From positions 1 through 42,415 of the forward strand of contig JAVCCG010000061.1 in assembly GCA_030765605.1 (NCBI GenBank): a stretch of DNA of 42,415 nt, in the 5' to 3' direction. The stretch comes from Candidatus Alcyoniella australis (GTDB taxonomy: Bacteria > Lernaellota > Lernaellaia > JAVCCG01 > Alcyoniellaceae). The notes under the pieces were generated by a model. The model made no database searches. It was not told where the DNA came from and was given only the letters and a program-made list of their open reading frames with translations. Positions 6,484-38,544 of the stretch are shown one piece after another; positions within the stretch are counted from its first letter, which is position 1; every line of letters starts with the position of its first letter. The translations under genes were made by a program, and so were the position numbers.

Positions 6484-6657
6484 TTGTGCGATCCTATTGA
6501 GTGTGAATCAACGTCGAATACACCTGAATGCAGCATATATACGGGACGCGATCCTGACAAGCCGACTGAGGTTGCCGCTGCCGGGGTCGATGACAATCGA
6601 TCAAGAGAATTGGTAGATTATGATGATCGATCATTCTTCGTTCGCCCCGGAGGTCCG

Positions 6658-8172
6658 ATGTCCAAAGCGTTGCGCCTGTTAACGGTCCTGTTGTGCTTGC
6701 TGATCCCGCTGGCGTTGGTCGCCTGCGATCAGGGCGCCGATGACGACGACGACGACCAGACCGCGGATGACGACGACCTTGACGACGACGATTTGGACGA
6801 CGACGCGGACGACGACGACGATACGCAGGACCCCGACTGGGATTTCATTGTCGACGAACAGGGGCGCGCGCTGATCTTGCACGGCTGCAACTTCGACGGC
6901 GGGGCCAAGTGGAACGCGGGCCTGCCGCCCCAAGGGGTCGAGCAGACGCAGAGCCTGTTTGGCGATTGGGGCTTCAACTTCGCGCGCTACTTAATTTTCC
7001 GGGCCGAGATCGACCCCGAGCCCGGCGTCTACAACGAGGACTATCTGGGCCAGGTCGAGACGCGGCTGGACTGGCTGGAGCAGGCCGGCATCCGCGTGGT
7101 GCTCGACATGCACCAGGACGTCTGGGGACCGGAGTTCCACAGCGGCGGCTCCGACGGCGCGCCGCCCTGGGCCACGATCACCGACGGAGTGCCGCACATC
7201 CCCTTTGCCCAGCTCCTCGGCGCCTGGGCCCTGGACTACCTCTCGCCCGCGGTGATGCGCGCCTTTGACAACTTCTGGGACTACGAGCTGCACCCCGAGC
7301 TGCAGGACCTCTACGCCGCAATGTGGGTCCACGTGGTGCAGCGCTTCAAGGATCACCCCAGCGTACTGGGCTACGACCTGATCAACGAGCCGTGGGAAGG
7401 GACCGGGATCTACAACCAGGGGCGCTTTGACCGCACCAAGTATTTCGAGTTCAACCAGCGGATGATCGACGCGATCCGCAGCGCGGACCAGGAGGGCTGG
7501 ATCTTCTACGAGCCGCGCGCCTTTGGCCCCAACCAGGGACTGCCATCGCATTTGCCCGCACTGGACGATCCGCGTCCCGGCGCGCAACGCCTGGCCTACT
7601 TCCCGCACATGTACTCGATCCTGGTCGAGCTTGAAGGCGGCTACGACCCGCTGCGCGATCCGATCCTCGAGGACTGGCCGCGCAACCGCACGATCGAGAG
7701 CGAGCTGCAGCGTGCGCCGCTGCTGGCCGGCGAATGGTCGTTGCTCACCTGGCCCGACCTGGAAAACCGCCTGCTGTTCAACGATGCGGCCCTGCGGATG
7801 TTCGAAAGCGCGACCTCGGGCTGGGCCTATTGGGATTGCGGCTCGTTCGAGCGCTCGCCGCTTGAGCTGCAAGAGCTGATCGCCTCGCCCTTTCCTCGCG
7901 CCGTGGCCGGTTGGCCCCTGGAGTACGGCTACGACCAAAGCGCGCGCGAGCTGAGCTTGACCTTTGAGGCGCGCGACAATGTCGAGGGACCGACCGAGAT
8001 CTATCTGCCGCTAAGCCGCTGCTGCCCTGACGGCTACGCAATCGAGGTCAGCGGCGTGGCGGAAGATGGCTGGCACAGCGAGTTTAACGACGATTCCCAA
8101 CTGCTCAGCATCTGGATCGATGAGACTTTTACCGAGGCCACAATCAGTATTTTTGCCGCACAGCCGCAGTAG
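6658..8172 (+). CDS. Lipoprotein: glycoside hydrolase family 5 domain, with a poly-Asp linker after the lipobox
   Basis: MSKALRLLTVLLCLLIPLALVAC is a signal peptide plus lipobox. It is followed by DQGADDDDDDQTADDDDLDDDDLDDDADDDDD. GH5 blocks: VVLDMHQDVWGPEF and GYDLINEPWEG (the NEP acid/base motif). GGAGG sits 4 nt upstream of the ATG at 6658. The track ORF begins at 6484, but the upstream residues have no signal peptide or RBS. Confidence 0.7.
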   Translation: MSKALRLLTVLLCLLIPLALVACDQGADDDDDDQTADDDDLDDDDLDDDADDDDDTQDPDWDFIVDEQGRALILHGCNFDGGAKWNAGLPPQGVEQTQSLFGDWGFNFARYLIFRAEIDPEPGVYNEDYLGQVETRLDWLEQAGIRVVLDMHQDVWGPEFHSGGSDGAPPWATITDGVPHIPFAQLLGAWALDYLSPAVMRAFDNFWDYELHPELQDLYAAMWVHVVQRFKDHPSVLGYDLINEPWEGTGIYNQGRFDRTKYFEFNQRMIDAIRSADQEGWIFYEPRAFGPNQGLPSHLPALDDPRPGAQRLAYFPHMYSILVELEGGYDPLRDPILEDWPRNRTIESELQRAPLLAGEWSLLTWPDLENRLLFNDAALRMFESATSGWAYWDCGSFERSPLELQELIASPFPRAVAGWPLEYGYDQSARELSLTFEARDNVEGPTEIYLPLSRCCPDGYAIEVSGVAEDGWHSEFNDDSQLLSIWIDETFTEATISIFAAQPQ

Positions 8173-8335
8173 CCGCCAGCCCAGGGTTACAACAAGCCGG
8201 CTGGTGTTGCCCGCTGCCAGGGTGACAATCGATCGGCAAATCGGGCACACGGTTGAAGCTCGCTTGGGAAAATTGCCTTTTGATTGGCGCAGGCGTAGCC
8301 TCAGTTGTATACATATTTCATCAGAGGTGCACGCC

Positions 8336-10018
8336 GTGAGAAAACGCTTTTTCACGTTTACCGCCCTGGCCTTCTCAGTTATCTGTGTCATCGGCATCGT
8401 GGCGTTCTGCTCTTGCGGGACTGATGATGACGACGACGCGGACGACGATGACGACGATCTTGACGACGACGCGGACGACGATGACGACGACGGTTTCCCC
8501 TGCGTCTGGGACCAGGTACGAGCAGGACATTGGGTGCATGCGGTGAACTTGCCGTGGGACAACTATGGCACCGACTTCGGAGAAAGCGCCTGGGGCTATC
8601 GCGGATTGGCAAACCAGGGGCCTGCCGGATGGCGCTGCAAACACGACGACGACAGCCAAGGGTGTGCGAGTTTGGATTGGAACGACGGGAAGCTCGTGGT
8701 GAACTTGAGCTTGAATGCCTCAGATCAGCTCAGATCGAATGCAATAACTTACTATTGTTTTGAGGAATCGGCGGCTTTGCCCTCGGAGGGGACGATCGAC
8801 CTTCGCGGAAAAACAGTTGCCGCCCAGGCAAGCTTTCCTGCCGGAAGCCAGGGGCCCTCATCCGCTCCCAACGAAGTAGTCCTCTTTCTCCAGGACATCA
8901 ACTGGAATTGGGGACAGAGCGCGCCGCAGAACATCGTGCCGGGCGACATGACGTTGAGCGTCGTGCCCGACACCCTGCCGGATTTCGATGAGACGCAGGT
9001 CCGCTGCATCGGCATCAGCATGACTACCAACGACGAGGCGCCGGATGATTACACTTATGACGGCTCCTTCACCGTCGATTACGTGCAGTCGCCGCCCGAG
9101 ATAAACTTCCCCTACGACACCGCCCATACGCGCACAGAAGATGAACTGCTGGACATCGCGGGCCTCGGGGCCACGGCGACCCGCGTATGGCTTTTCGCCG
9201 ACGGCCGATCAGGACTGGCATTCGATCCGGCCAGCGGAGAGGTCAGCGGCCTTAATCAGTTTTTTAAAGATGATTTCGACGAACTGATACGTCTGGCTGA
9301 TTCAAGCCGGCTATATCTGATCGTCGTGCTGTTTGACTTCCTGATGGGCGGCTCGTCCCCGGTGGAGGAGCCGGGAATCTTCGGCCACGCGGACCTGATC
9401 ACCGACCCGGCCAAGCGCGATTCCCTGATCGGGAATGCGCTGATCCCGCTCTTTGAGGAGTACGGCGATCGGTGCGAAATATTGTCGTGGGAACTGATGA
9501 ATGAGCCCGAATGGCTGTTGATCAACGATCCCGACCACGTGACGATCCTCGCGGGAAAGAGGCCGTCCGAGATCGCCACCGGCGGCGCGGCCACCTTCGA
9601 CCAGATGACCGAGTTTTTCAACGCTGTTCTTGAGGCATACCAGACCGCCGTGCCCGGCGGGCAACAGCTTTTCACCGTGGGAAGCGCCAGCGAACAATGG
9701 GCCGATCAGTGGTACGAGGCGCTGAACATGGATCTCGGTCAATTCCATTTCTGGAACGGTCCCGCACAGATCGACGAAGGTCTGAGCTTCGATTTCACGC
9801 CGCCGATCGCCGGCGTGCCCAACATCATGGGCGAGTTCAGCTCAGAGGCCGATTGCTGCGAAATACTGGAATCCGCCCTTGAGCTGGATTACTCGGGAGC
9901 CTGGCCCTGGGCCTATCGATCCAAGGACGAATCGAGCTTCCGCATGCTGGGCGACGATTGCCGCGAGTGCATGCAGCAGTTTGCAGAGGAACATCCCGAA
10001 ACGGTTCGCTTCGAATAG
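8336..10018 (+). CDS. Lipoprotein: second glycoside hydrolase family 5 (mannanase-like) domain, with a poly-Asp linker
   Basis: GTG at 8336 is preceded by cAGAGG. The N-terminus (V)RKRFFTFTALAFSVICVIGIVAFCSCG is followed by TDDDDDADDDDDDLDDDADDDDDD. GH5 block: ILSWELMNEPEW. Confidence 0.6.
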   Translation: MRKRFFTFTALAFSVICVIGIVAFCSCGTDDDDDADDDDDDLDDDADDDDDDGFPCVWDQVRAGHWVHAVNLPWDNYGTDFGESAWGYRGLANQGPAGWRCKHDDDSQGCASLDWNDGKLVVNLSLNASDQLRSNAITYYCFEESAALPSEGTIDLRGKTVAAQASFPAGSQGPSSAPNEVVLFLQDINWNWGQSAPQNIVPGDMTLSVVPDTLPDFDETQVRCIGISMTTNDEAPDDYTYDGSFTVDYVQSPPEINFPYDTAHTRTEDELLDIAGLGATATRVWLFADGRSGLAFDPASGEVSGLNQFFKDDFDELIRLADSSRLYLIVVLFDFLMGGSSPVEEPGIFGHADLITDPAKRDSLIGNALIPLFEEYGDRCEILSWELMNEPEWLLINDPDHVTILAGKRPSEIATGGAATFDQMTEFFNAVLEAYQTAVPGGQQLFTVGSASEQWADQWYEALNMDLGQFHFWNGPAQIDEGLSFDFTPPIAGVPNIMGEFSSEADCCEILESALELDYSGAWPWAYRSKDESSFRMLGDDCRECMQQFAEEHPETVRFE

Positions 10019-10042: not shown

Positions 10043-10834
10043 CTACCCCAGGGTCACGTCCAGCACCATCATCACGATGAAGCCGATCATCACGCCGAAG
10101 GTCGCCTCTTTCTCAAACCCTTTGCGGTGCGACTCGGGGATAATCTCGTCCGAGACCACGAAGAGCATGGCGCCCGCTGCGAACGCCAGTCCCCAGGGCA
10201 AAATCGGCTGAGCCACGCTGACCAGGCCCGCGCCGAACAGTCCACCCACCGGCTCCACCAGCCCGGTGAGCAGCGCGATCCCCAACGCCTGAGCCTTGGT
10301 ATAGCGCTCGGTGAGCAGCGCCAGGGCCACCACCAAACCCTCGGGCATGTTCTGCAATCCAATGCCGATGGCCAGGCTGGTGCCGTTTTGCACATCGCCC
10401 CCGCCAAAGCCCACGCCCACGGCCAGTCCCTCGGGAAAGTTGTGCAGGGTGATGGCGATGATGAACAGCCAGACGCGGCGCAGGTTGCTGCGGTCCGCGC
10501 CCTCGGGCCCTTTGATGAAATGTTCGTGGGGTAAAAAGCGGTCGGCCAACCAGAGAAACACCGCGCCCAGGCCCATGCCGCAGGCCACGATCATCGCGCC
10601 GGACACGCCCGCGCCGCCGGCCTCGATGGCAGGGATGATCAGCGAGAATGAGGTAGCCGCGAGCATTACGCCCGCGCCGAATCCGAGCATCACGTCCTGG
10701 GTTCGCTGGGAAATCCCGCGGGTGAACAGCACGGGCAACGCACCCACGCCCGTGGCCAGACCCGCCAGCAGGCTCGCCATTGCGCCCAAAACCACGATCG
10801 GCATGTCGGATAGGCCCGCGATCATCTCCTGCAT
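10043..10834 (-). CDS. zupT: ZIP-family zinc transporter
   Basis: HNFPEGLAVG and QNMPEGLVVALAL are ZIP signature motifs. About eight TM helices. Length 263 aa, typical for ZupT. Confidence 0.85.
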   Translation of the reverse strand: MQEMIAGLSDMPIVVLGAMASLLAGLATGVGALPVLFTRGISQRTQDVMLGFGAGVMLAATSFSLIIPAIEAGGAGVSGAMIVACGMGLGAVFLWLADRFLPHEHFIKGPEGADRSNLRRVWLFIIAITLHNFPEGLAVGVGFGGGDVQNGTSLAIGIGLQNMPEGLVVALALLTERYTKAQALGIALLTGLVEPVGGLFGAGLVSVAQPILPWGLAFAAGAMLFVVSDEIIPESHRKGFEKEATFGVMIGFIVMMVLDVTLG

Positions 10835-10927: not shown

Positions 10928-11632
10928 TCAGCCGCCGAGGATTTGCGGGTTGAACGCCAGCACCACGCTGTTGCACAGCCCGTGGTAGAGGCCCGCGCCG
11001 AATACGCTGCCCGTGCGCTTGCGCATCCAGGCGAAGGCCAGTCCGGGCACAAAGGTGGCGACCGTGGCCGGGTTGAACGTGATCGCCAAATGCGCCAGGG
11101 CGAACAGCGCGGCGCTGAGCCAGACGTCCGGCCCGATCCGAACCCCGAGCAGCGTCGGCCCGCGATGGCCCCAACGCCGGGTCAGCGGGCTCTGAATCCA
11201 GCCGCGAAAAAAAATCTCCTCGGGCACGCCGATCACCAGGATCATCAGCGTCACACCTCGCACGTAACTCCAATCGAGACGCGCGGTCACGTGGTGATCC
11301 ATGATCAACCCGAACCAGACCACGTAGAGCACAACGAACAGCGGCAGCGTGGCCAGGGCGAACAGCAGCGAGACTTTCAGATCGTCGCGCCAACGATCGA
11401 GGCGCAGGCCGAAATCCTCCGGCCGTTGGCGGCAGAGGCGTATCAGCAGCAGCGGCAGATAGATCAGCAGCACGACCTTGCCCACCGCCGCCAAATCCGC
11501 GGTGATGCCCGGCAGGCGACGTGCCGCGTTGAGCGCTAAGAAGGCCACAATCAGCGCCGCCAGGCTGGCCAGTAGTTGCCGAATGGACGGCCGTAACGCG
11601 GCCTGTTGTTCGATGGAATGCTGTCGGGACAT
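10928..11632 (-). CDS. CPBP-family (CAAX protease-like) intramembrane metalloprotease
   Basis: EEIFFRG motif 1, FALAHL motif 2 and a HGLCN-like third motif. Multi-pass membrane protein. Confidence 0.75.
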   Translation of the reverse strand: MSRQHSIEQQAALRPSIRQLLASLAALIVAFLALNAARRLPGITADLAAVGKVVLLIYLPLLLIRLCRQRPEDFGLRLDRWRDDLKVSLLFALATLPLFVVLYVVWFGLIMDHHVTARLDWSYVRGVTLMILVIGVPEEIFFRGWIQSPLTRRWGHRGPTLLGVRIGPDVWLSAALFALAHLAITFNPATVATFVPGLAFAWMRKRTGSVFGAGLYHGLCNSVVLAFNPQILGG

Positions 11633-11726: not shown

Positions 11727-12902
11727 GTGAAATCGCTTAAGCCGATCCTAGTCCTGGCCTTGATTGCGACGCTTGTCAGCGTTGCGGCGGCGGCCGATCA
11801 GACCGCCGCGGAGCTGCAGCGCGAGGGCGTACGCGCGGCGCGGCAGGGCGATCCGCAGCTCGGCGCACAGCTGCTCGAGCGTTGCGTCGAACTCTACCCG
11901 GACTACCGCAACCTGGACTACGTGCTCTACAACCTGGGCGACGTCTACGAGAACGAACTGTTCGATTTCGTGCGCGCATGCGACATCTATAAAGAACTGA
12001 TCGAGCGCTTCCCCTCCAGCCGTTGGGCGCTGCGCGGCCGCAACCGCCTTGAGCAACTCGAGGAGAACGACCTGTACAGCGATTCCGAGCCGCTGGCCCT
12101 GCTCAAATCGATCCGCCGCGACTACCGCGACCTGGGACGCGATCGCGTGGTCGAGCAGTACCTGACCCTGCTGCACGATTTCCCGCTGTTCAGCAAGCGC
12201 GACGAGGCGCTGTTCGGCTTGGCCCAGGAATACGAGCTGCGCGCATTGCCCGAGGACGACGAGCGCGAGTACCTCAAGGCCCTCGAGATGTACCGCCGGC
12301 TGGTGGAGGAGAAGCCGGGCAGCGATTTGGCGTTTGTCGCGCTCAAGCAATCGGGCGACATCCTGCTCGAGCTCAACCGCTTTGACGAGGCGCGGCAGGA
12401 GTATGCGCGGATGGCGTCCTATCGCGGCGAGGACGGCGCGAACGCGGCGCGGTTCCTCTCGCTGGAGGTCGACAAGTACATACGATTGCGCAACCTGTAC
12501 TTGGTCTGCCTGGGATTAATCGCCGCCCTAAGCGCACTGCTGATCAAGCGCGTGCGTTGGTCGTCCCTTGGCCGCGACCGGGTGCTGCGCGCACTGATCG
12601 AGCCGGGCCTGCTGCTGCTGGCTTCCATCGGCGGGGCCTGGTACTTGCTCTATCACGACCGCCCCGTACGCTACCTGTTTTGCATGCTGTTGCTGATGCT
12701 CGGCTTCGCTGTCACACTATTTTGTAACGCGCTGTACATCGGCACACGCCGCCTGAGTGCTATGCAGATACTGTTTCAGGCAGTGGTGGTGATGTTACTT
12801 GTAACGGCAGTGATCTACGCGGTCTTTTATGGACTGGGACTGATGTCGATTACGATTCAGACTTTGCAGTCGCACTACTACATCATCAGCAGGGGAGGCT
12901 GA
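11727..12902 (+). CDS. TPR-like repeat protein with a signal peptide and a C-terminal multi-TM domain
   Basis: The track ORF starts at 11478 but overlaps the divergent CPBP gene. GTG at 11727 gives a signal-peptide-like start, VKSLKPILVLALIATLVSVAAAADQ. The protein is helical-repeat (TPR-like) with YPDY/YNLGDVY-type repeats. Four to five C-terminal TM helices. The start position is uncertain. Confidence 0.45.
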   Translation: MKSLKPILVLALIATLVSVAAAADQTAAELQREGVRAARQGDPQLGAQLLERCVELYPDYRNLDYVLYNLGDVYENELFDFVRACDIYKELIERFPSSRWALRGRNRLEQLEENDLYSDSEPLALLKSIRRDYRDLGRDRVVEQYLTLLHDFPLFSKRDEALFGLAQEYELRALPEDDEREYLKALEMYRRLVEEKPGSDLAFVALKQSGDILLELNRFDEARQEYARMASYRGEDGANAARFLSLEVDKYIRLRNLYLVCLGLIAALSALLIKRVRWSSLGRDRVLRALIEPGLLLLASIGGAWYLLYHDRPVRYLFCMLLLMLGFAVTLFCNALYIGTRRLSAMQILFQAVVVMLLVTAVIYAVFYGLGLMSITIQTLQSHYYIISRGG

Positions 12903-12904
12903 AA

Positions 12905-13138
12905 GTGAGCAGCGCCGATCCCTTCCAGATTCCGACTCCCGAGCCGGGCATGCGTGGTCGAATACTCAAAGTCAAGATCGGGGTCAATCCCAACTCGAGT
13001 TCCCTGGGAACCGATTTGCAGGTGATCCTCTTCGGCGCTACGGCCCTGGGCCTTCTGACCACCTTCCTCTCTACGGCAATCAGAATCTGGCGCAAGCCCA
13101 AAGTGCAGCCGGAAACGGGGAAGCAAGATGGAAAATGA
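12905..13138 (+). CDS. Small (77 aa) hypothetical protein with one C-terminal TM helix, immediately upstream of the radical SAM gene
   Basis: The GTG start at 12905 is 7 nt after a GGAGG. Its stop overlaps the radical SAM ATG (ATGA). The TM segment is LQVILFGATALGLLTTFLSTAIRIW. Coding status is unverified. Confidence 0.3.
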   Translation: MSSADPFQIPTPEPGMRGRILKVKIGVNPNSSSLGTDLQVILFGATALGLLTTFLSTAIRIWRKPKVQPETGKQDGK

Positions 13139-14309
13139 GCGCAAGATCATCCCCTACCGCTTCGAGCACTTCGGCGGCATTTTGCACCTGGAGCATCCCA
13201 GCTCGCTGATCTGGGTCGACAAGGACTACATGCGTTCGCTGGGTTTCGAACACTCGCCGCTGTGGGACATCGACCGGCCCTATCTCTGCGCTCCGACCGA
13301 GGTTCACCTGAGCGTCACCGGCCGCTGCTCAGCCGGCTGCGTGGGCTGCTACATGGACGCGCGGCCCGACTTCGAGGGCGATCTGGACCTCGAGCAAATG
13401 CGCAAGGTGATCGACACCCTGGCCGACATGCGCGTGTTCCATCTGGCAATGGGCGGCGGCGAGAGTTTCGAGTGCGAACACTTCATCGAGCTGGCACGCC
13501 ACGCGCGCCAACGCGGCATGGTGCCCAACGTCACCACCAACGGCATGCTGATCGACGAACACAACGCCGAACTCTCGCGGGTCTTCGGCCAGATCAACGT
13601 CAGCGTCGACGGCGTGGAGCAGGTCTTCACCAGCTGCCGCGGACACGATGGATTCGCCCGCGCCGACCGCGCCATCAACGCGCTGCGCCGCGCCGGCTGC
13701 AGGGTGGGCATCAACACCGTGGTCTCGCGCCGCAACTTCGACCACCTGGAACAACTGATCCGCTATGCCCACGACCAGCAGGTGCTCGAGGTCGAGCTGC
13801 TGCGCTTCAAGCCCGCGGGCCGCGGCTGCGACGTGTTCAACGACTTCGACCTCACGCCGCAACAGGCGCGGGATTTCTACCCGCTGATCACCTCCCTGGC
13901 CCGGCGCCACAACGTCTGGATCAAACTCGACTGCTCGTTCACGCCGCTGGTCTGCTATCACCAGCCCGATCCGGAACGGATGGACTTCTTTGCGGTCAAC
14001 GGCTGCGAGGCGGGCAACATGCTGATGGGCGTGCGCTCCGACGGCCAGGTCTCGGCTTGCAGCTTCTCCCAAAGCGAGCCGCACGATGTGCTCAAGATGA
14101 GCAGCTGGTGGAAAGACGCCGCCTCGTTCAGCGACTTCCGCCTATGGGACAAGGCCGCGGTGCCCGAGCCCTGCGCGAGCTGCCGCTATCTGCGAATCTG
14201 CCGCGGCGGTTGCCACCCGGTGGCCCAATTCGTCTACGGCGATTTTTCCATGCCCGACCCGGGATGCCCCACGGTTCAAGAGTATATGGGCAGCCCGATC
14301 ATCCACTAA
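13128..14309 (+). CDS. Radical SAM/SPASM-domain protein (peptide-modifying-type rSAM maturase candidate)
   Basis: CSAGCVGC (CxxxCxxC) at residue 66. The C-terminal SPASM pattern is GCEAG...ACSF...EPCASCRYLRICRGGCHPVA...DPGCP. A ~60-aa N-terminal extension (YRFEHFGGILHLEHPSSLIWVDKDY) is vaguely like an RiPP-recognition element (PqqD-like). Confidence 0.8.
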   Translation: MENERKIIPYRFEHFGGILHLEHPSSLIWVDKDYMRSLGFEHSPLWDIDRPYLCAPTEVHLSVTGRCSAGCVGCYMDARPDFEGDLDLEQMRKVIDTLADMRVFHLAMGGGESFECEHFIELARHARQRGMVPNVTTNGMLIDEHNAELSRVFGQINVSVDGVEQVFTSCRGHDGFARADRAINALRRAGCRVGINTVVSRRNFDHLEQLIRYAHDQQVLEVELLRFKPAGRGCDVFNDFDLTPQQARDFYPLITSLARRHNVWIKLDCSFTPLVCYHQPDPERMDFFAVNGCEAGNMLMGVRSDGQVSACSFSQSEPHDVLKMSSWWKDAASFSDFRLWDKAAVPEPCASCRYLRICRGGCHPVAQFVYGDFSMPDPGCPTVQEYMGSPIIH

Positions 14310-14447
14310 TTTGGGCAGCTTGGAGCTGCCACAAAACACGCGAGCAAACCAAGATCGTAGCTCAACGACCTTCTCCGCGACGGAAGATGCGGGAGGCTGG
14401 TAAAGATCAATATCTTTCTTCTTTACCTCACTATCCCCGCCCATGCC

Positions 14448-14476
14448 TTGACATTCGGCAATAAAGGGTTATTTTT
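14448..14476 (+). promoter_or_regulatory. Candidate sigma70-type promoter: TTGACA, 17-nt spacer, TATTTT. Upstream of the FmdB-family gene.
   Basis: Read from the sequence: ccTTGACAttcggcaataaagggttATTTTt. GAGAGGGA RBS before the ATG at 14502. Confidence 0.35.
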
Positions 14477-14501
14477 TCCCCGGTAAGTTTGAGAGGGAAC
14501 A

Positions 14502-14861
14502 ATGCCGATATACGAATACGAATGCCAACAATGCGGAAAGCTCAGCGAGCACTGGCAGAAGACCACTGACGGCCCGCCGGAAAATTGCCCCCATTGCCAG
14601 GGTGGACCTTTGCGTAAAATAGTCAGTCTCTCGACCTTCCATCTCAAGGGAACCGGCTGGTACGTGACCGACTACGCCCGGAAAAACGGTGATGCCAAGA
14701 ACGACGCGCCTTCGCCCAAGCCAAACGGCGAGCAGTCCTCGAGCGCGGCATCATCGTCCGATGAGAGCAAACCGGCCGAGTCCAAATCCGAGAGCAAGTC
14801 CGAGAGCAAGGCTGAGACCAAAGCCGAGTCCAAGCCCAACACGTCGACCACGGACGCTTAA
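14502..14861 (+). CDS. FmdB-family zinc-ribbon protein with a low-complexity Ser/Lys/Glu-rich tail
   Basis: MPIYEYECQQCG...CPHCQG is the canonical FmdB/CxxC_CxxC_SSSS N-terminus. The tail is ESKPAESKSESKSESKAETKAESKP. Confidence 0.75.
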   Translation: MPIYEYECQQCGKLSEHWQKTTDGPPENCPHCQGGPLRKIVSLSTFHLKGTGWYVTDYARKNGDAKNDAPSPKPNGEQSSSAASSSDESKPAESKSESKSESKAETKAESKPNTSTTDA

Positions 14862-14904: not shown

Positions 14905-14967
14905 GTTGCCGCCACCGGCATCCTTCTTATGCGTGGCGACCCAGGTAACTTATCAAGGAGTAATCCA

Positions 14968-15357
14968 ATGGAAGTGCGCGAGGGTCTCAAGTACACCAAA
15001 GAGCACGAGTGGACCAATTACGAGGACGGCTCGGTCAGTGTCGGGATCACCGATTTCGCCCAGGATCAATTGGGCGACGTGGTGTTCGTCGAGCTGCCCA
15101 AGGTCGGCGACAAGTTCGCGGCCAATGAGGCCTTCGGCGTGGTCGAAAGCGTCAAGGCCGTGTCCGACGTCTACCCGCCGATCGCCGGAGAGATCGTTGA
15201 GGTCAACGAGGCGTTGGCCGATGCTCCGGAGACCGTCAACTCCGATCCCTACGGCGAAGGCTGGATGGTCAAGATCAAGCCCGACGACCCGGCCGAGCTC
15301 GACGCGCTGATGGACGCTGCGGCCTACGCCAGCTTCTGCGCCGAGGAACAGGGTTGA
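14968..15357 (+). CDS. gcvH: Glycine cleavage system H protein
   Basis: [15 protein letters not shown]...[13 protein letters not shown] contains the lipoyl-lysine block ESVKA. AAGGAG is 7 nt upstream of the ATG at 14968. The track ORF starts earlier at 14929. Confidence 0.9.
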
Positions 15358-15389: not shown

Positions 15390-16733
15390 ATGCGCTACAT
15401 ACCCCATACCGAGCAAGACGTACGGTCGATGCTCGACGCCATCGGCGTCGACGGGATCGAACGACTTTTCGAGGCGATCCCCAAACAGGTCCGCCAGAGC
15501 GCCGGGCTGAACCTGCCCGAGCCGCTGGACGAACAGCAACTGGTCGGACTGCTCACCGAGCTGGCCGATCGCAACAGCTCGATGGACGAGCTGAGCTGCT
15601 TTTTGGGCGCGGGGGTCTACGACCACCACGTGCCCACGGCCATCGATCAACTGCTGCTGCGCGGGGAGTTCTTCACCGCCTACACGCCCTACCAGCCCGA
15701 GGCGGCCCAGGGCACGTTGCAGGCGATCTACGAGTATCAGACCATGGTCTGCGAGCTGACCGGCATGGACGTGGCCAACGCCTCGCTCTACGACGGGGCC
15801 AGCGCACTGGCCGAGGGCGTGCTGATGGCGGCGCGCCGCAACCGCAAGACCAAGCGTACGATCATCTCGCGCGCGGTCCATCCGGAATATCGCCAGACGG
15901 TTCAGACCTACGCCCAACATCAGGATATCGAGTTTGCGAGCCTACCCTTTGGTCCCGACGGCCGCGCCGACCTGGCGCAGCTCGAGCAGCTGCTCGAGGA
16001 TCCGGCGGCCGGCGTGGTGATCCAGCAGCCCAACGCCCTGGGCGTAATCGAGCCGCTGGACCGCATCGCGGCGTTGATCAACGGCCGGGCGCGGCTGATC
16101 GTCTGCGTGGTCGAACCGCTGAGCCTGGGTCTGCTCGAGGCGCCGGGCAAGCTGGGCGCGGACATCGTGCTCGGCGAAGGCGCGAGCTTCGGCCTCGCCC
16201 CTGGGTTCGGCGGACCGCATCTGGGATTCTTCGCCGTGCGCCAATCCGACGTGCGCGCGATGCCCGGTCGGCTGTGCGGCGCCACGTTCGACAGCGAGGG
16301 CAACCGTGGCTACGTGCTGACCTTGGCCACGCGCGAGCAGCACATCCGCCGCGAGAAAGCCACGAGCAACATCTGCACCAACCAGGCGCTGTGCGCGCTG
16401 GCAATGACGATCTACCTCACGCTGCTGGGGCCCGCTGGCCTGCAGTGCCTGGCGCAGATCAACTACTCCAAAGCCGAGCACGCCAAGTCCGCGCTCTCCG
16501 CGGTCAAGGGCTGCTCGCTGCCGTTCGCCGCGCCGACGTTCAACGAGTTCGTGCTGCGCACGCCGCATCCCGCCCAGCGGGTCGAAGCTGCCCTGCGGCA
16601 GGAGGGAATTCTCGGAGGGCTGCCGCTCGAGCGCTGGTACCCCGAATTTGAGAACTGCCTGCTGGTGGCCGCAACGGAAAAAGTCAGCGCCGAGGAGATC
16701 AGCCGCTATGTCCAAGTCCTCAACCAGTTGTGA
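15390..16733 (+). CDS. gcvPA: Glycine dehydrogenase (decarboxylating) subunit 1
   Basis: MRYIPHTEQDVRSMLDAIGV... is the typical split P-protein alpha subunit. 447 aa. Confidence 0.9.
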   Translation: MRYIPHTEQDVRSMLDAIGVDGIERLFEAIPKQVRQSAGLNLPEPLDEQQLVGLLTELADRNSSMDELSCFLGAGVYDHHVPTAIDQLLLRGEFFTAYTPYQPEAAQGTLQAIYEYQTMVCELTGMDVANASLYDGASALAEGVLMAARRNRKTKRTIISRAVHPEYRQTVQTYAQHQDIEFASLPFGPDGRADLAQLEQLLEDPAAGVVIQQPNALGVIEPLDRIAALINGRARLIVCVVEPLSLGLLEAPGKLGADIVLGEGASFGLAPGFGGPHLGFFAVRQSDVRAMPGRLCGATFDSEGNRGYVLTLATREQHIRREKATSNICTNQALCALAMTIYLTLLGPAGLQCLAQINYSKAEHAKSALSAVKGCSLPFAAPTFNEFVLRTPHPAQRVEAALRQEGILGGLPLERWYPEFENCLLVAATEKVSAEEISRYVQVLNQL

Positions 16734-18231
16734 GCTTCCGGCCGGGTTTCCCGGCACGGTCGGTCTAAAATTTAACGAGCCGCTGATCTTCGAGCGCTCG
16801 GTCCCCGGACGTATCGGCCACAGCCTGCCGGCCCTCGACGTTCCGACCGCCAACCCGGCGCTGTACGTCGAGCCCGAGCTGCTGCGCGGCGAGGCTCCGG
16901 CCCTGCCCGAGGTCAGCGAGATTGACGCGGTGCGTCACTTCCACCGCCTCTCGGGCTGGAACTACGCGGTGGACAGCGGGATGTACCCGCTGGGCTCGTG
17001 CACGATGAAGTACAACCCGCGCGTCAACGAGGCGACCTCGCGTCTGCCGGGCCTGGCCCGGCTCCACCCGCTGCAACCGGTCCAGACCGCGCAGGGCGCG
17101 CTATCGCTGATGCACGAACTTTCGTCGATGTTGGCCGAGATCAGCGGCATGCACGCGGTGACGCTGCAGCCCGCGGCCGGAGCCCACGGCGAATTCAGCG
17201 GCCTGTTGATGATCCGCGCCTATCACACCAGCCGCGGCAACCCGCGCAGCAAGGTGTTGATTCCCGATTCGGCCCACGGCACCAATCCGGCCAGCGCCGC
17301 GCTGTGCAACTACAAACCGATCGAGCTCAAGTCCGGCCCCGATGGACTGCTCGACCCGTATACCGTGGCCGCTGCGATGGACGAAGAGGTCGCCGCGCTG
17401 ATGATCACCAACCCCAACACCCTGGGGCTGTTCGAGCGCAACATCCTCGAGATCGCCAAGATCGTCCACGACAAGGGCGGGCTGATCTACTGCGACGGCG
17501 CCAACCTCAACGCCTTGATGGGCGCGGCCAAGCCCGCGCACTTCGGCGCGGATGTGCTGCACTTCAACCTGCACAAGACCTTCAGCACGCCCCACGGCGG
17601 CGGCGGACCGGGTTCGGGCCCGGTGGGCGTGGTCGAGGCGCTCGAGCCGTTCCTGCCCTCGCCCGTGGTCGTCAAGTCCCAGCGCGACGGTGCGGATTAT
17701 TACGAGCTGGATTACGACCGGCCGCAGAGCGTCGGACGGGTCAAAGCGTTTTACGGCAACTTCCTGGTGATGGTCCGCGCCTACACTTACATCCGCGAGC
17801 TCGGCGGCGAGGGCCTGACCCGCTCGACGCAGATGGCGGTGCTCAACGCCAACTACGTCAAGGAACGGCTCAAGGAAGTTTTTAGCGTGGCGCACGACGC
17901 GACCTGCATGCACGAGTGCGTGTTCTCCGAGCAAAGCCTGGTCGAGCACGGCTGCCACACCATGGACCTGGCCAAACGCCTGATCGATTACGGCTATCAT
18001 CCGCCCACGGTCTATTTCCCCTTGATCGTCAAAGGCGCGATCATGATCGAGCCCACCGAGAGCGAGAGCGTCGAGTCGCTGGAGCAGTTCATCGAGGCGA
18101 TGCTGGCGATCCAACGCGAGGCGCAGACCGACCCCGAGTTGCTGCACAGTGCACCGCACTGCACGCGACTGGGTCGCCTCGATGAGGTGCGCGCGGTCAA
18201 GGATCTCGACGTGCGTTGGACCAAACGCTGA
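16708..18231 (+). CDS. gcvPB: Glycine dehydrogenase (decarboxylating) subunit 2 (PLP-binding)
   Basis: LIFERSVPGRIGHSLP...HFNLHKTFSTPHGGGGPG (the PLP-lysine region). ATG at 16708 overlaps the gcvPA stop by 26 nt. Confidence 0.9.
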   Translation: MSKSSTSCELPAGFPGTVGLKFNEPLIFERSVPGRIGHSLPALDVPTANPALYVEPELLRGEAPALPEVSEIDAVRHFHRLSGWNYAVDSGMYPLGSCTMKYNPRVNEATSRLPGLARLHPLQPVQTAQGALSLMHELSSMLAEISGMHAVTLQPAAGAHGEFSGLLMIRAYHTSRGNPRSKVLIPDSAHGTNPASAALCNYKPIELKSGPDGLLDPYTVAAAMDEEVAALMITNPNTLGLFERNILEIAKIVHDKGGLIYCDGANLNALMGAAKPAHFGADVLHFNLHKTFSTPHGGGGPGSGPVGVVEALEPFLPSPVVVKSQRDGADYYELDYDRPQSVGRVKAFYGNFLVMVRAYTYIRELGGEGLTRSTQMAVLNANYVKERLKEVFSVAHDATCMHECVFSEQSLVEHGCHTMDLAKRLIDYGYHPPTVYFPLIVKGAIMIEPTESESVESLEQFIEAMLAIQREAQTDPELLHSAPHCTRLGRLDEVRAVKDLDVRWTKR

Positions 18232-25751: not shown

Positions 25752-26606
25752 TCAGTCGCTCAGCGGGCGGGCGTGATAAGAGCTTCTGACCAGCGGCGCG
25801 CAGAACGCTTGTTTGAACCCCTTGGACAGGGCGAGCTGTTGCAATTCGTCGAACTCCGCGGGCTCCCAATAGCGCTCCACCGCCAGGTTGCCCAAGCGCG
25901 GCCGCAAATACTGCCCCACGGTGATCATGTCGCAATCCACGTTACGTAGATCGTCGAGCACTGCCTCAATTTCCTCGCGCGTCTCGCCCAGCCCGACCAT
26001 CAGCCCGCTTTTAGTCGCCAGCTCCGGCCGCGCCTGTTTGGCCAGCCGCAGCACTTGCAGCGAACGCGCGTAGTCGGCCTGGGGGCGCACCCGGCCATAG
26101 AGCCGCGGCAAGGTCTCCAGGTTGTGGTTGAAGACCTCGATCGGTCCGTTGGCCACCAGCGCCACCGCCTCCTCATTACCAAGCATGTCCGGCACCAGCA
26201 CCTCGATCGTGGCCTGCGGCAGCCGCCCGCGGATCGCGCGGCACACGGCCAGGAAATGCGCGGCGCCGCCGTCGTGCAAATCGTCGCGAGTAACAGAAGT
26301 CACCACTACGTGCGTCAGCCCCATCTCAGCCGCCACCAGTGCCAGCTGCTCGGGCTCGTGTTGATCCAGGGGCAGCGGAGCGCCGTGTTCGATTGCGCAA
26401 AAGGCGCAGTTGCGCGTACAGCGATCGCCCATAATTAAAAAGGTGGCCGTGGGCTGAGCAAAGCACTCGCTGATGTTCGGACAACGCGCAGACTCGCAGA
26501 CCGTGTGCAGACCGTGACTACGTAGGATCGAGCGCAGCCGATGGACCTGCGCGCCGCGGGCCGGCGGCCGTCTGAGCCATTGCGGTTTGCGTTGCTGATC
26601 GCTCAT
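25752..26606 (-). CDS. lipA: Lipoyl synthase
   Basis: CESARCPNISEC auxiliary-cluster motif and CTRNCAFC radical SAM motif. 284 aa. Confidence 0.9.
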   Translation of the reverse strand: MSDQQRKPQWLRRPPARGAQVHRLRSILRSHGLHTVCESARCPNISECFAQPTATFLIMGDRCTRNCAFCAIEHGAPLPLDQHEPEQLALVAAEMGLTHVVVTSVTRDDLHDGGAAHFLAVCRAIRGRLPQATIEVLVPDMLGNEEAVALVANGPIEVFNHNLETLPRLYGRVRPQADYARSLQVLRLAKQARPELATKSGLMVGLGETREEIEAVLDDLRNVDCDMITVGQYLRPRLGNLAVERYWEPAEFDELQQLALSKGFKQAFCAPLVRSSYHARPLSD

Positions 26607-38389: not shown

Positions 38390-38464
38390 TGGTGCCCCAG
38401 GGAGGGATCGAACCTCCGCACCCGGCTCCGGAGGCCGATGCTCTATCCACTGAGCTACTGGGGC
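38390..38464 (-). tRNA. tRNA-Arg (anticodon CCG)
   Basis: The reverse complement gives GCCCCAGTAGCTCAGTGGATAGAGCATCGGCCTCCGGAGCCGG...GGTTCGATCCCTCCCTGGGGCACCA. The cloverleaf folds by hand. The anticodon loop is CTCCGGA. CCA is encoded. Confidence 0.85.
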
Positions 38465-38468
38465 ATGA

Positions 38469-38544
38469 TGGTGGACGGTAGCGGACTCGAACCGCCGGCC
38501 TCTGCCTTGCGAAAGCAGCGCTCTTCCAACTGAGCTAACCGCCC
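38469..38544 (-). tRNA. tRNA-Ala (anticodon CGC)
   Basis: The reverse complement gives GGGCGGTTAGCTCAGTTGGAAGAGCGCTGCTTTCGCAAGGCAG...GGTTCGAGTCCGCTACCGTCCACCA. The G3:U70 wobble is the Ala identity element. The anticodon loop is TTCGCAA. CCA is encoded. Only 4 nt separate it from tRNA-Arg. Confidence 0.85.

What the first reader, a model, noticed from the sequence alone, without database searches (positions are those of the whole stretch)
11727..14861. Radical SAM/SPASM enzyme with an RRE-like N-terminal extension, flanked by a small TM-peptide ORF and a 4-Cys FmdB-family zinc-ribbon protein
SPASM-type rSAMs are typically peptide maturases for thioether, C-C or epimerisation chemistry. Here the enzyme carries a ~60-aa N-terminal extension (…YRFEHFGGILHLEHPSSLIWVDKDY…). 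It is translationally coupled (ATGA overlap) to a 77-aa ORF encoding a peptide with one TM helix. It is followed by a small protein with two CxxC pairs and a low-complexity SK/E tail, and preceded by a TPR membrane protein. Either small protein could be the substrate. The FmdB-family protein is Cys-bearing, as are sactipeptide- and ranthipeptide-type precursors. This may be an uncharacterised RiPP-like or protein-modification cassette, not a sulfatase-maturase type enzyme. No sulfatase gene is nearby.
Basis: partly seen in the sequence, partly recalled or inferred. Interest (0 to 1): 0.65.

Follow-up and report, generated by a model that had tools for sequence, protein, structure and literature searches.

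The report
Radical-SAM enzyme with membrane micro-protein partner
A radical-SAM/SPASM enzyme sits in a three-gene module, conserved across more than ten bacterial phyla, with a tiny membrane protein carrying an invariant "NPNSSS" motif and a TPR membrane protein; the module appears undescribed and probably installs an unknown modification on the tiny protein, while the neighbouring zinc-ribbon gene is only a bystander.

Summary
All the ORFs are real and lie at the stated coordinates. The window comes from the anaerobe Ca. Alcyoniella australis (phylum Lernaellota).

**The partners.**
- The 77-aa ORF is the real partner. Homologues lie next to the enzyme in 67–68 of about 80 loci from more than ten phyla.
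- These homologues share an invariant GxNPNSSSxG motif just ahead of one TM helix. No Pfam, NCBIfam or literature entry matches it.
- The upstream protein, with a TPR domain and four TM helices, co-occurs in 54 of 81 loci.
- The FmdB zinc-ribbon gene is adjacent only in the nearest relative and in none of 80 other loci. It also has its own promoter-like site, so it is not part of the module.
- The micro-protein has no conserved Cys, so thioether (sacti- or ranthipeptide) chemistry is excluded.

**Best reading (about 0.5):** the enzyme modifies the NPNSSS loop of the membrane micro-protein, which then works with the TPR membrane partner in the envelope. This is a new variant of a known kind. 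The chemistry is unknown.

The parts
11727..12902 (+). TPR membrane protein (391 aa): N-terminal signal-like segment, ~220-aa TPR region and C-terminal TM helices. Conserved partner ('TPR-4TM').
   Evidence: Pfam TPR_6, TPR_14, TPR_19 and YfiO hits. Hydropathy finds the N-terminal segment and three C-terminal helices above threshold, with a fourth read by eye. Homologues fall in clusters c4, c6 and c9, which are mutually homologous (hhalign probability 99%), and occur in 54/81 loci. No conserved polar TM residues were seen.
12905..13138 (+). Small membrane protein (77 aa from GTG 12905; possible alternative start at ATG 12950, giving 62 aa). It is the proposed substrate or partner of the rSAM enzyme.
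   Evidence: ORF and Shine-Dalgarno sequence. Homologues occur in 68/81 loci, mostly directly adjacent to the rSAM gene on the same strand. At least 4563 database clusters exist, and every name a source gives among the listed hits is a variant of 'hypothetical protein' apart from one stray JGI 'CcdC' label. NCBI calls the 77-aa form. The closest relative also has a ~16-aa non-conserved N-terminal extension with no internal Met.
12956..13009 (+). Conserved N-terminal motif G-R-I-L-K-V-K-I-G-V-N-P-N-S-S-S-L-G (family consensus G(R/K)(I/V)L(K/R)(V/I)KxG(Y)NPNSSS(I/L)G)
   Evidence: In 78 family members, G, N, N, S, S and S are invariant, and P and the final G are present in 77/78. There is no Pfam or NCBIfam match and the string 'NPNSSS' occurs in no paper searched.
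13016..13081 (+). Single hydrophobic TM helix of the small protein (LQVILFGATALGLLTTFLSTAI)
   Evidence: The mean Kyte-Doolittle score of the TM core across the family is 2.13. The helix starts a median of 5 residues after the motif. Both flanks are basic, so the topology is ambiguous.
13128..14309 (+). Radical SAM/SPASM enzyme (393 aa), an unclassified family
13128..13292 (+). Conserved N-terminal extension (residues 1-55): a three-stranded beta-sheet plus two short helices, possibly a truncated RRE-like docking domain
13326..13349 (+). CX3CX2C radical-SAM cluster motif (C67, C71, C74)
   Evidence: Invariant in alignment A1.
13932..14267 (+). SPASM auxiliary-cluster region with eight invariant Cys (C269, C293, C311, C349, C352, C358, C362, C380)
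   Evidence: Invariant columns in alignment A1. It aligns with the PqqE SPASM region.
10928..11632 (-). Divergently transcribed CPBP/Rce1-like intramembrane protease (myxosortase-like, below cutoffs). Possible lineage-specific accessory.
   Evidence: PF02517 hit; best NCBIfam hit is MrtP at 132 bits against a cutoff of 250. It occupies the same position in only 6/81 loci, all among the window's close relatives.

Best explanation
The region encodes a conserved three-gene, membrane-associated protein-modification module. It has three components:
1. A cytoplasmic radical SAM/SPASM enzyme of the PqqE/MftC/SuiB structural type, carrying three Fe-S clusters.
2. A 60-80-aa single-pass membrane micro-protein. 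Its N-terminal segment carries a basic strand (G-R/K-I-L-K-V-K) followed by an invariant G-x-N-P-N-S-S-S-x-G loop about 5 residues before the TM helix.
3. A partner protein with a signal peptide, a TPR domain inferred to be periplasmic, and four TM helices.

Proposed mechanism:
- The enzyme's conserved ~55-residue N-terminal beta-sheet domain docks the basic strand of the micro-protein.
- The 5'-deoxyadenosyl radical abstracts a hydrogen from an Asn or Ser residue of the NPNSSS loop.
- The two auxiliary clusters complete an oxidative step. This could be a cross-link, a Ser oxidation or an epimerisation, but not a Cys thioether.
- The modified micro-protein then functions in the membrane together with the TPR-4TM scaffold. 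In other phyla the module sits inside envelope or metal-related islands.

Shown here: the genes, motifs and fold, their co-conservation, and the exclusion of FmdB. Inferred: docking, the substrate identity of the micro-protein, the chemistry and the physiological role.
For: **Enzyme family**
- It is distinct from all curated families.
- PqqE is the closest solved sequence, at 3.6e-28.
- All eight SPASM Cys and the CX3CX2C motif are invariant.

**Link to the micro-protein**
- Homologues are found in 66/80 loci by tblastn, 67/80 by motif scan and 68/81 by ORF clustering.
- 33 gene pairs lie within -28 to +100 nt of each other, many with 3-4-nt overlaps.
- Gene order is permuted between clades (TPR-small-rSAM, small-TPR-rSAM, rSAM-small-TPR), yet the trio is retained.
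- Loci that lack the small gene are scattered across the rSAM tree rather than grouped.
- Sampling in the reverse direction, from the small protein, finds the rSAM adjacent in 5 of 6 contigs; the sixth lies at a contig end.

**Conservation pattern**
- Conservation is concentrated in about 20 N-terminal residues, with invariant G, N, N, S, S, S. The TM helix and tail vary freely. This is the pattern expected of a recognition-plus-modification site.
- The enzyme's N-terminal extension is conserved family-wide. Its best weak structural matches include leader-binding RRE proteins.
- TPR-4TM homologues occur in 54/81 loci.

**Host**
- The host is a strict anaerobe (PMC9324843).
Against: - There is no direct evidence of binding or modification.
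- The micro-protein has no conserved Cys or aromatic residue. Tyr before NPN is present in only 58/78 members, and the window has Val. No known SPASM chemistry therefore maps onto it.
- Both TM flanks are basic, so it is not certain that the motif faces the cytoplasm where the enzyme is.
- Some loci carry two small/TPR-4TM pairs but only one rSAM. This pattern also fits a structural or adaptor role.
- 11 of 81 loci have neither partner within 6 kb.
Confidence: 0.5

Rival explanations
1. The micro-protein is not a substrate. It is a membrane tether or adaptor that, with the TPR-4TM protein, recruits the rSAM enzyme to the membrane. The true substrate would be another molecule, such as a co-localised envelope protein (for example the purple-acid-phosphatase-like metallophosphoesterase), the TPR-4TM protein itself, or a lipid or cofactor.
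For: - In 28/81 loci a PAP-like metallophosphoesterase is nearby. HupE/UreJ, TonB-dependent receptor, redoxin and CcdA-like genes also recur.
- Some islands hold two small/TPR-4TM pairs per rSAM.
- The micro-protein lacks the Cys or aromatic residues used by known SPASM cross-linkers.
- The N-extension is not a canonical RRE.
Against: - The window and all type-A loci lack PAP, HupE and TonB genes, yet keep the trio. Those proteins therefore cannot be the universal substrate.
- The invariant polar NPNSSS loop is unusual for a mere anchor.
- The closest folds are peptide maturases.
- The TPR-4TM family is poorly conserved and has no invariant site.
Confidence: 0.27
2. One reading: the Cys-bearing FmdB zinc-ribbon protein is the substrate, through sacti- or ranthipeptide-like thioether formation.
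For: FmdB is adjacent in the window and in the closest relative, L084. It has two CxxC pairs.
Against: - FmdB is absent from all 80 more distant loci, by both tblastn and motif search.
- In the relative, the entire FmdB-gcvH-gcvP synteny is retained, so the adjacency reflects recent common ancestry.
- A 192-nt gap containing a sigma-70-like promoter match at 14448-14475 separates FmdB from the rSAM gene.
- FmdB is a ubiquitous zinc-ribbon family (TIGR02605).
Confidence: 0.02
3. The enzyme is a cofactor or protein maturase of a known type (AhbC/AhbD/NirJ heme maturase, anSME, PqqE, MftC or GeoRSP), and its small neighbours are coincidental.
For: There are partial NCBIfam similarities: MftC 153 bits, GeoRSP 128, NirJ1 116 and AhbC 115. 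anSME and PqqE are among the top fold hits.
Against: - Every score is far below its curated cutoff.
- No heme, PQQ, mycofactocin or sulfatase genes were found in the window ORFs scanned or among the recurrent neighbours.
- The conserved neighbours are the micro-protein and the TPR-4TM protein.
Confidence: 0.05

Closest known systems
PqqE/PqqA/PqqD (PQQ biosynthesis) and MftC/MftA/MftB (mycofactocin)
   Same: These are the closest by sequence: the PqqE structure 6c8v at 3.6e-28 and the MftC model as the best NCBIfam hit. Both are SPASM rSAM enzymes acting on a small, ribosomally made peptide encoded next door and recognised through a PqqD-type domain.
   Different: Scores are far below the family cutoffs (153 against 265, and 79 against 381). 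There are no PqqB/C/D/F or MftB/D/E/F genes. The partner here has a TM helix, lacks the Glu/Tyr pair or the C-terminal GVY, and carries NPNSSS instead. The docking domain is a fused, truncated ~55-aa element with no PqqD sequence signal.
SuiB (streptide Lys-Trp cross-linking rSAM, PDB 5v1q)
   Different: Sequence identity is only 17%. SuiB's RRE is a full ~100-aa winged helix. Its substrate is a soluble, secreted quorum-sensing-regulated peptide with Lys and Trp. Here there is no conserved Lys/Trp pair, and the substrate candidate is membrane-anchored.
QhpD/QhpC (quinohemoprotein amine dehydrogenase gamma-subunit maturation; from my own knowledge, not tested here)
   Same: This is a functional analogy. 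A SPASM rSAM modifies a small protein that is a subunit of an envelope enzyme complex rather than a secreted natural product.
   Different: QhpD makes Cys thioethers and QhpC is Cys-rich and soluble. The micro-protein here has no conserved Cys and has a TM helix. No amine dehydrogenase genes are present.
Anaerobic sulfatase-maturating enzyme (anSME)
   Different: No sulfatase or (C/S)xPxR motif is present, and no anSME model appears among the 25 NCBIfam hits listed of 59. The family has an extra conserved N-terminal domain.

Membership tests
Radical SAM superfamily | CX3CX2C motif binding the SAM-cleaving [4Fe-4S] cluster within a partial TIM barrel | tested here: met
   PF04055 scores 60.3 bits against a cutoff of 29.5. 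C67, C71 and C74 are invariant. The predicted barrel superposes on SuiB, SkfB and anSME.
SPASM subfamily | C-terminal seven-Cys pattern CX9-15GX4C … CX2CX5CX3C … C, binding two auxiliary clusters | tested here: met
   C293-X12-G306-X4-C311, C349-X2-C352-X5-C358-X3-C362 and C380, plus C269, are all invariant. The region aligns to the PqqE SPASM region. The Pfam SPASM model itself did not hit at E<=0.01.
RRE / PqqD-like leader-recognition domain | An ~85-aa winged helix-turn-helix (three beta-strands plus three helices) detectable by PqqD-type profiles | tested here: inconclusive
RRE / PqqD-like leader-recognition domain | Binds the precursor's leader as an added beta-strand | not testable with these tools
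A binding assay or AF-multimer run is needed.
RiPP-type precursor/maturase pair | A small ORF adjacent to the maturase, co-conserved with it, with a conserved recognition or core segment | tested here: met
   Present in 68/81 loci, with the invariant GxNPNSSSxG motif. The reverse sampling, from the small protein, finds the rSAM in 5 of 6 contigs.
RiPP-type precursor/maturase pair | Leader-cleaving protease and exporter; product released as a peptide | tested here: not met
   No conserved protease or ABC exporter was found. A CPBP protease occurs in only 6/81 loci. The candidate keeps a TM helix in all members.
Sactipeptide / ranthipeptide maturases | Cys donors in the precursor for thioether bridges | tested here: not met
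   Only 16 of 78 micro-proteins contain any Cys, and none is conserved. AlbA scores 47 bits against a cutoff of 850, and StsB 90 against 625.
MftC (TIGR03962), PqqE (TIGR02109), GeoRSP rSAM (TIGR04303) | Score above the curated equivalog cutoff | tested here: not met
   153 bits against 265, 78.6 against 381 and 128 against 400.
Heme maturases AhbC / AhbD / NirJ | Score above the equivalog cutoff and a tetrapyrrole gene context | tested here: not met
   Scores of 97-116 bits against cutoffs of 500-650. No tetrapyrrole genes were found in the neighbourhoods.
anSME | A sulfatase partner with a (C/S)xPxR motif, and an anSME model hit | tested here: not met
   There is no anSME hit among the 25 NCBIfam hits listed of 59, and no sulfatase in the window ORFs scanned.
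FmdB-family zinc ribbon (for the 119-aa ORF) | TIGR02605 / PF09723 above cutoff, with CxxC…CxxC | tested here: met
   68.8 bits against 31.3, and 58.2 against 34.4. The ORF is a member of that family but is not linked to the rSAM family.

The most novel reading that the evidence does not exclude
The trio defines a previously unrecognised, phylogenetically broad post-translational modification system, found in at least ten phyla of mostly anaerobic bacteria. In this reading, a SPASM radical-SAM enzyme performs new, non-Cys chemistry on an Asn/Ser-only loop (NPNSSS) of a membrane-anchored micro-protein. The product would be a modified membrane subunit or cofactor-bearing subunit that works with a periplasmic TPR scaffold in envelope or metal-related machinery, which in other phyla includes PAP-like phosphoesterases, HupE/UreJ proteins and TonB-dependent receptors. 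It would not be a secreted RiPP.
Probability: 0.35. Interest if true: 0.8.

Novelty: new variant of a known kind. Interest (0 to 1): 0.6.

Why it matters
Radical-SAM/SPASM enzymes are a main source of new peptide chemistry. Almost all characterised examples act on soluble peptides through Cys, aromatic or Lys/Glu residues.

This case differs in several ways:
- The family occurs in at least 350 species-level genomes across many phyla.
- It is locked to a micro-protein family of thousands of members that no database names.
- The only invariant residues of that micro-protein are Gly, Asn, Pro and Ser, next to a TM helix.

If the micro-protein is the substrate, the chemistry must be new for this enzyme class, and the product would be a modified membrane protein rather than a natural product.

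The finding also assigns a testable role to two large 'hypothetical' families, the NPNSSS micro-protein and the TPR-4TM protein. It gives a concrete peptide for in-vitro work (GRILKVKIGVNPNSSSLG) and a cultured host that carries the module (Geomesophilobacter sediminis Red875).

Tried and rejected
1. **FmdB as a cassette member: rejected.** There were no hits in 80 loci by tblastn or by an N-terminal motif regex. The gene has its own promoter-like site. It is retained only in the nearest relative, together with gcvH and gcvP.
3. **PqqD/RRE sequence signal in the N-extension: none found**, even at E<=10.
4. **Pfam and NCBIfam scans of four micro-proteins and of the TPR-4TM proteins:** nothing meaningful.
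5. **Literature searches:** 'NPNSSS', rSAM + SPASM + TPR, rSAM + HupE + metallophosphoesterase + TonB, and SPASM + transmembrane + precursor found no description of this family.
6. **Natural fusions of micro-protein and rSAM:** none among six of the longer homologues.
7. **Riboswitch or other RNA in the 192-nt rSAM-FmdB spacer:** Rfam found only two tRNAs, about 24 kb away.
8. **A second module or PAP/HupE genes elsewhere in the window:** none.
9. **Conserved catalytic-looking residues in the TPR-4TM membrane domain:** none.
10. **The afdb50 fold library** was unavailable.
11. **Known maturase readings** (sulfatase maturase, heme maturase, PqqE, MftC, GeoRSP): rejected on curated cutoffs and gene context.


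Full report
**Origin of the window.** The window derives from a MAG of Candidatus Alcyoniella australis; the rSAM protein is a 100% match to an NCBI entry from a 42,415-bp contig. The organism belongs to phylum Ca. Lernaellota (FEN-1099). It is a strict anaerobe from the anoxic zone of Ace Lake, Antarctica (PMC9324843).

**Observation check.**
- A TPR/membrane protein at 11727-12902.
- A 77-aa ORF at 12905-13138, with a GTG start and a GGAGG sequence 6 nt upstream. It begins 2 nt after the TPR gene's stop codon.
- A 393-aa radical SAM ORF at 13128-14309.
- After a 192-nt gap, a 119-aa FmdB-family zinc ribbon at 14502-14861.
- Then gcvH, gcvPA and gcvPB.

One detail is wrong. The small ORF overlaps the rSAM start by 11 nt (ATGGAAAATGA). 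The ATG within the visible 'ATGA' is out of frame with the rSAM gene. NCBI annotates the 77-aa form as a hypothetical protein. The closest relative's small protein also has a ~16-residue non-conserved N-terminal extension with no internal Met, which supports the upstream start.

**The enzyme.**
- Pfam sees only Radical_SAM and Fer4_12.
- NCBIfam lists 59 partial hits, all far below curated cutoffs: MftC 153 against 265, GeoRSP 128 against 400, NirJ1 116 against 650, AhbC 115 against 650 and PqqE 79 against 381. The family is therefore uncurated.
- In an alignment of 23 homologues, CX3CX2C (C67/C71/C74) and eight C-terminal Cys are invariant. These match the SPASM pattern: C293-X12-G-X4-C311, C349-X2-C-X5-C-X3-C362 and C380, plus C269.
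- A profile search of PDB sequences gives PqqE (6c8v) as the best hit at 3.6e-28, aligned across the core and the SPASM region.
- The AF2 model is confident, with pLDDT 93.

**Neighbourhood conservation, the decisive test.**
- A genome scan found 350 loci encoding relatives, of which 80 were retrieved. They come from Myxococcota, Thermodesulfobacteriota, Planctomycetota, Acidobacteriota, Bdellovibrionota, Elusimicrobia, Fibrobacterota, Bacteroidota, Spirochaetales, Nitrospirota, Ca. Raymondbacteria, a Clostridia MAG and the cultured Geomesophilobacter sediminis.
- tblastn with the window's proteins finds the 77-aa ORF in 66 of the 80 loci. It finds the TPR protein in 20 and the CPBP protease in 5. 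FmdB, gcvH, gcvP and ZupT are found in none.
- A motif scan finds G.N[PA]NSS ORFs in 67/80 loci.
- ORF clustering gives the small protein in 68/81 loci.
- The three TPR-membrane clusters (c4, c6, c9) are mutually homologous (hhalign probability 99%). They share the same signal-TPR-4TM architecture and occur in 54/81 loci. Both partners are present in 52 loci.
- In 33 loci the small gene lies within -28 to +100 nt of the rSAM start, often with 3-4-nt overlaps.
- Gene order is permuted between clades, but the trio persists.
- Loci lacking the small gene are scattered through the rSAM tree, and the architecture types follow rSAM clades.
- Sampling from the small-protein side finds the rSAM adjacent in 5 of 6 contigs; the sixth is at a contig end.

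**The micro-protein family.**
- In 78 members the consensus is G(R/K)(I/V)L(K/R)(V/I)KxG(Y)NPNSSS(I/L)G.
- G, N, N, S, S and S are invariant, and P and the final G are present in 77/78.
- One TM helix follows about 5 residues later, then a variable charged tail.
- Only 16 of 78 members contain any Cys, and none is conserved. The Tyr before NPN is present in 58/78; the window has Val.
- Both TM flanks are basic, so the topology is ambiguous.
- No Pfam or NCBIfam model matches, and the string 'NPNSSS' occurs in no paper searched.
- A profile search finds at least 4563 clusters; the listed hits are 58-107 aa, and every name a source gives is a variant of 'hypothetical protein' apart from one stray JGI 'CcdC' label.

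**FmdB.** It is a genuine FmdB-family zinc ribbon, but it is absent from all 80 distant loci. It is adjacent only in the closest relative (68% identical rSAM), where the whole FmdB-gcvH-gcvP block is syntenic. In the window it is preceded by a sigma-70-like match, TTGACA-16-TATTTT at 14448-14475. I conclude it is a bystander.

**Wider context in other phyla.**
- Type B loci (Planctomycetota, Bacteroidota, Spirochaetes) run: TPR-4TM, a lipoprotein, small protein 1, a redoxin, a PAP-like metallophosphoesterase fused to glutaredoxin-like and CcdA-like membrane domains, small protein 2, TPR-4TM, rSAM, and a DUF2950-like protein.
- Type C loci (Geobacterales, Acidobacteriota, Nitrospirota) run: a pentapeptide protein, a PAP-like metallophosphoesterase, a PEP-CTERM protein of family NF038129, TPR-4TM, small protein, rSAM, HupE/UreJ_2 and a TonB-dependent receptor. 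One locus adds ExbBD/TonB.
- Some islands hold two PAP/TPR-4TM/small modules with one rSAM.
- The window (type A) has only the trio plus a divergent CPBP protease, which is shared by 6/81 loci. No PAP or HupE gene occurs anywhere in its 42 kb.
- The TPR-4TM family is poorly conserved and has no invariant polar membrane residues, which suggests a scaffold rather than an enzyme.

**Interpretation.** The best-supported reading is a conserved protein-modification module. The cytoplasmic SPASM enzyme recognises the basic strand of the micro-protein through its N-terminal sheet and modifies the NPNSSS loop. The modified micro-protein then acts with the TPR-4TM partner in the envelope.
- Established here: co-conservation, the motifs, the fold, the distinctness from curated families and the exclusion of FmdB.
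- Inferred: docking, substrate identity, chemistry and physiology.
- Thioether chemistry is excluded because no Cys is conserved. Candidate chemistries are C-C, C-O or C-N cross-linking, Ser oxidation, or epimerisation.
- The main rival (about 0.27) is that the micro-protein is an adaptor and the substrate lies elsewhere.
- Readings as a known cofactor or sulfatase maturase, or with FmdB as substrate, are unlikely.

**Comparison with known systems.** The module works most like PqqE/PqqA or MftC/MftA (closest by sequence) and SuiB (closest by fold). Conceptually it resembles QhpD/QhpC, where a SPASM enzyme matures a small protein subunit; that comparison is from my own knowledge. It is a member of none of these families, because all curated cutoffs are missed and the partner is different.

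**Novelty and score.** I found no description of this family in Pfam, NCBIfam release 20 or the paper library. Novelty: a new variant of a known kind. Interest: 0.6.

Noticed in passing
window 14502-14861 (+), promoter-like site at 14448-14475: The FmdB-family zinc-ribbon gene has its own sigma-70-like promoter match (TTGACA-16-TATTTT, 10 of 12 positions). It sits directly upstream of gcvH (14929-15357), gcvPA (15390-16733) and gcvPB (16648-18231). The same FmdB-gcvH-gcvP order is kept in the closest relative, L084. It may therefore belong with the glycine-cleavage genes rather than with the rSAM.
   Followed up: partly
window 10928-11632 (-) and 10043-10834 (-): A CPBP/Rce1-like intramembrane protease resembles myxosortases (MrtP 132 bits, MrtX 120, all below cutoff). 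It is transcribed divergently from the TPR gene and followed by a ZupT-like ZIP metal transporter. The protease is shared by only 6/81 loci, and ZupT by none.
   Followed up: partly
L045:2128-4437, L056:2061-4379, L087:5701-8001: An unusual ~770-aa fusion occurs in Planctomycetota- and Bacteroidota-type loci. It combines a signal peptide, a purple-acid-phosphatase-like metallophosphoesterase, a glutaredoxin-like CxxC domain and a multi-TM CcdA/DsbD-like domain. It is preceded by a TlpA-like redoxin and flanked by two NPNSSS micro-protein genes.
   Followed up: partly
L082 (1-14213): Two tandem modules (PAP-like phosphoesterase, NF038129 PEP-CTERM protein, TPR-4TM, NPNSSS micro-protein) are present, but only the second is followed by the rSAM. 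One enzyme may therefore serve several micro-proteins, or the micro-protein and TPR pair may have a role independent of the enzyme.
   Followed up: no
L036, L016, L081, L083, L086: In Geobacterales-, Acidobacteriota- and Nitrospirota-type loci, the trio is followed by a HupE/UreJ_2 protein with a ~340-aa N-terminal extension and by TonB-dependent receptors. L083 also has ExbB/ExbD/TonB. This suggests a link to metal or nutrient uptake.
   Followed up: partly
window 8066-10018 (+): A 650-aa ORF with a long poly-Asp/Ala-Asp low-complexity stretch has no Pfam hit at E<=1e-5. It lies next to a GH5 cellulase-family gene at 6484-8172.
   Followed up: no
window 25752-26606 (-): A second radical SAM gene in the window looks like lipoyl synthase (Radical_SAM plus LIAS_N). 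This fits the nearby glycine-cleavage H protein and is unrelated to the finding.
   Followed up: no
window 38390-38544 (-): Two adjacent tRNA genes, tRNA-Arg(CCG) and tRNA-Ala(CGC), are the only Rfam or ARAGORN hits in the window.
   Followed up: yes
L023, L028, L051, L058: In a small Polyangia/Myxococcales group, the ORF clustering shows a second rSAM-cluster ORF about 4 kb from the first and no micro-protein within 6 kb. This may be a paralogous arrangement or a displaced partner gene.
   Followed up: no
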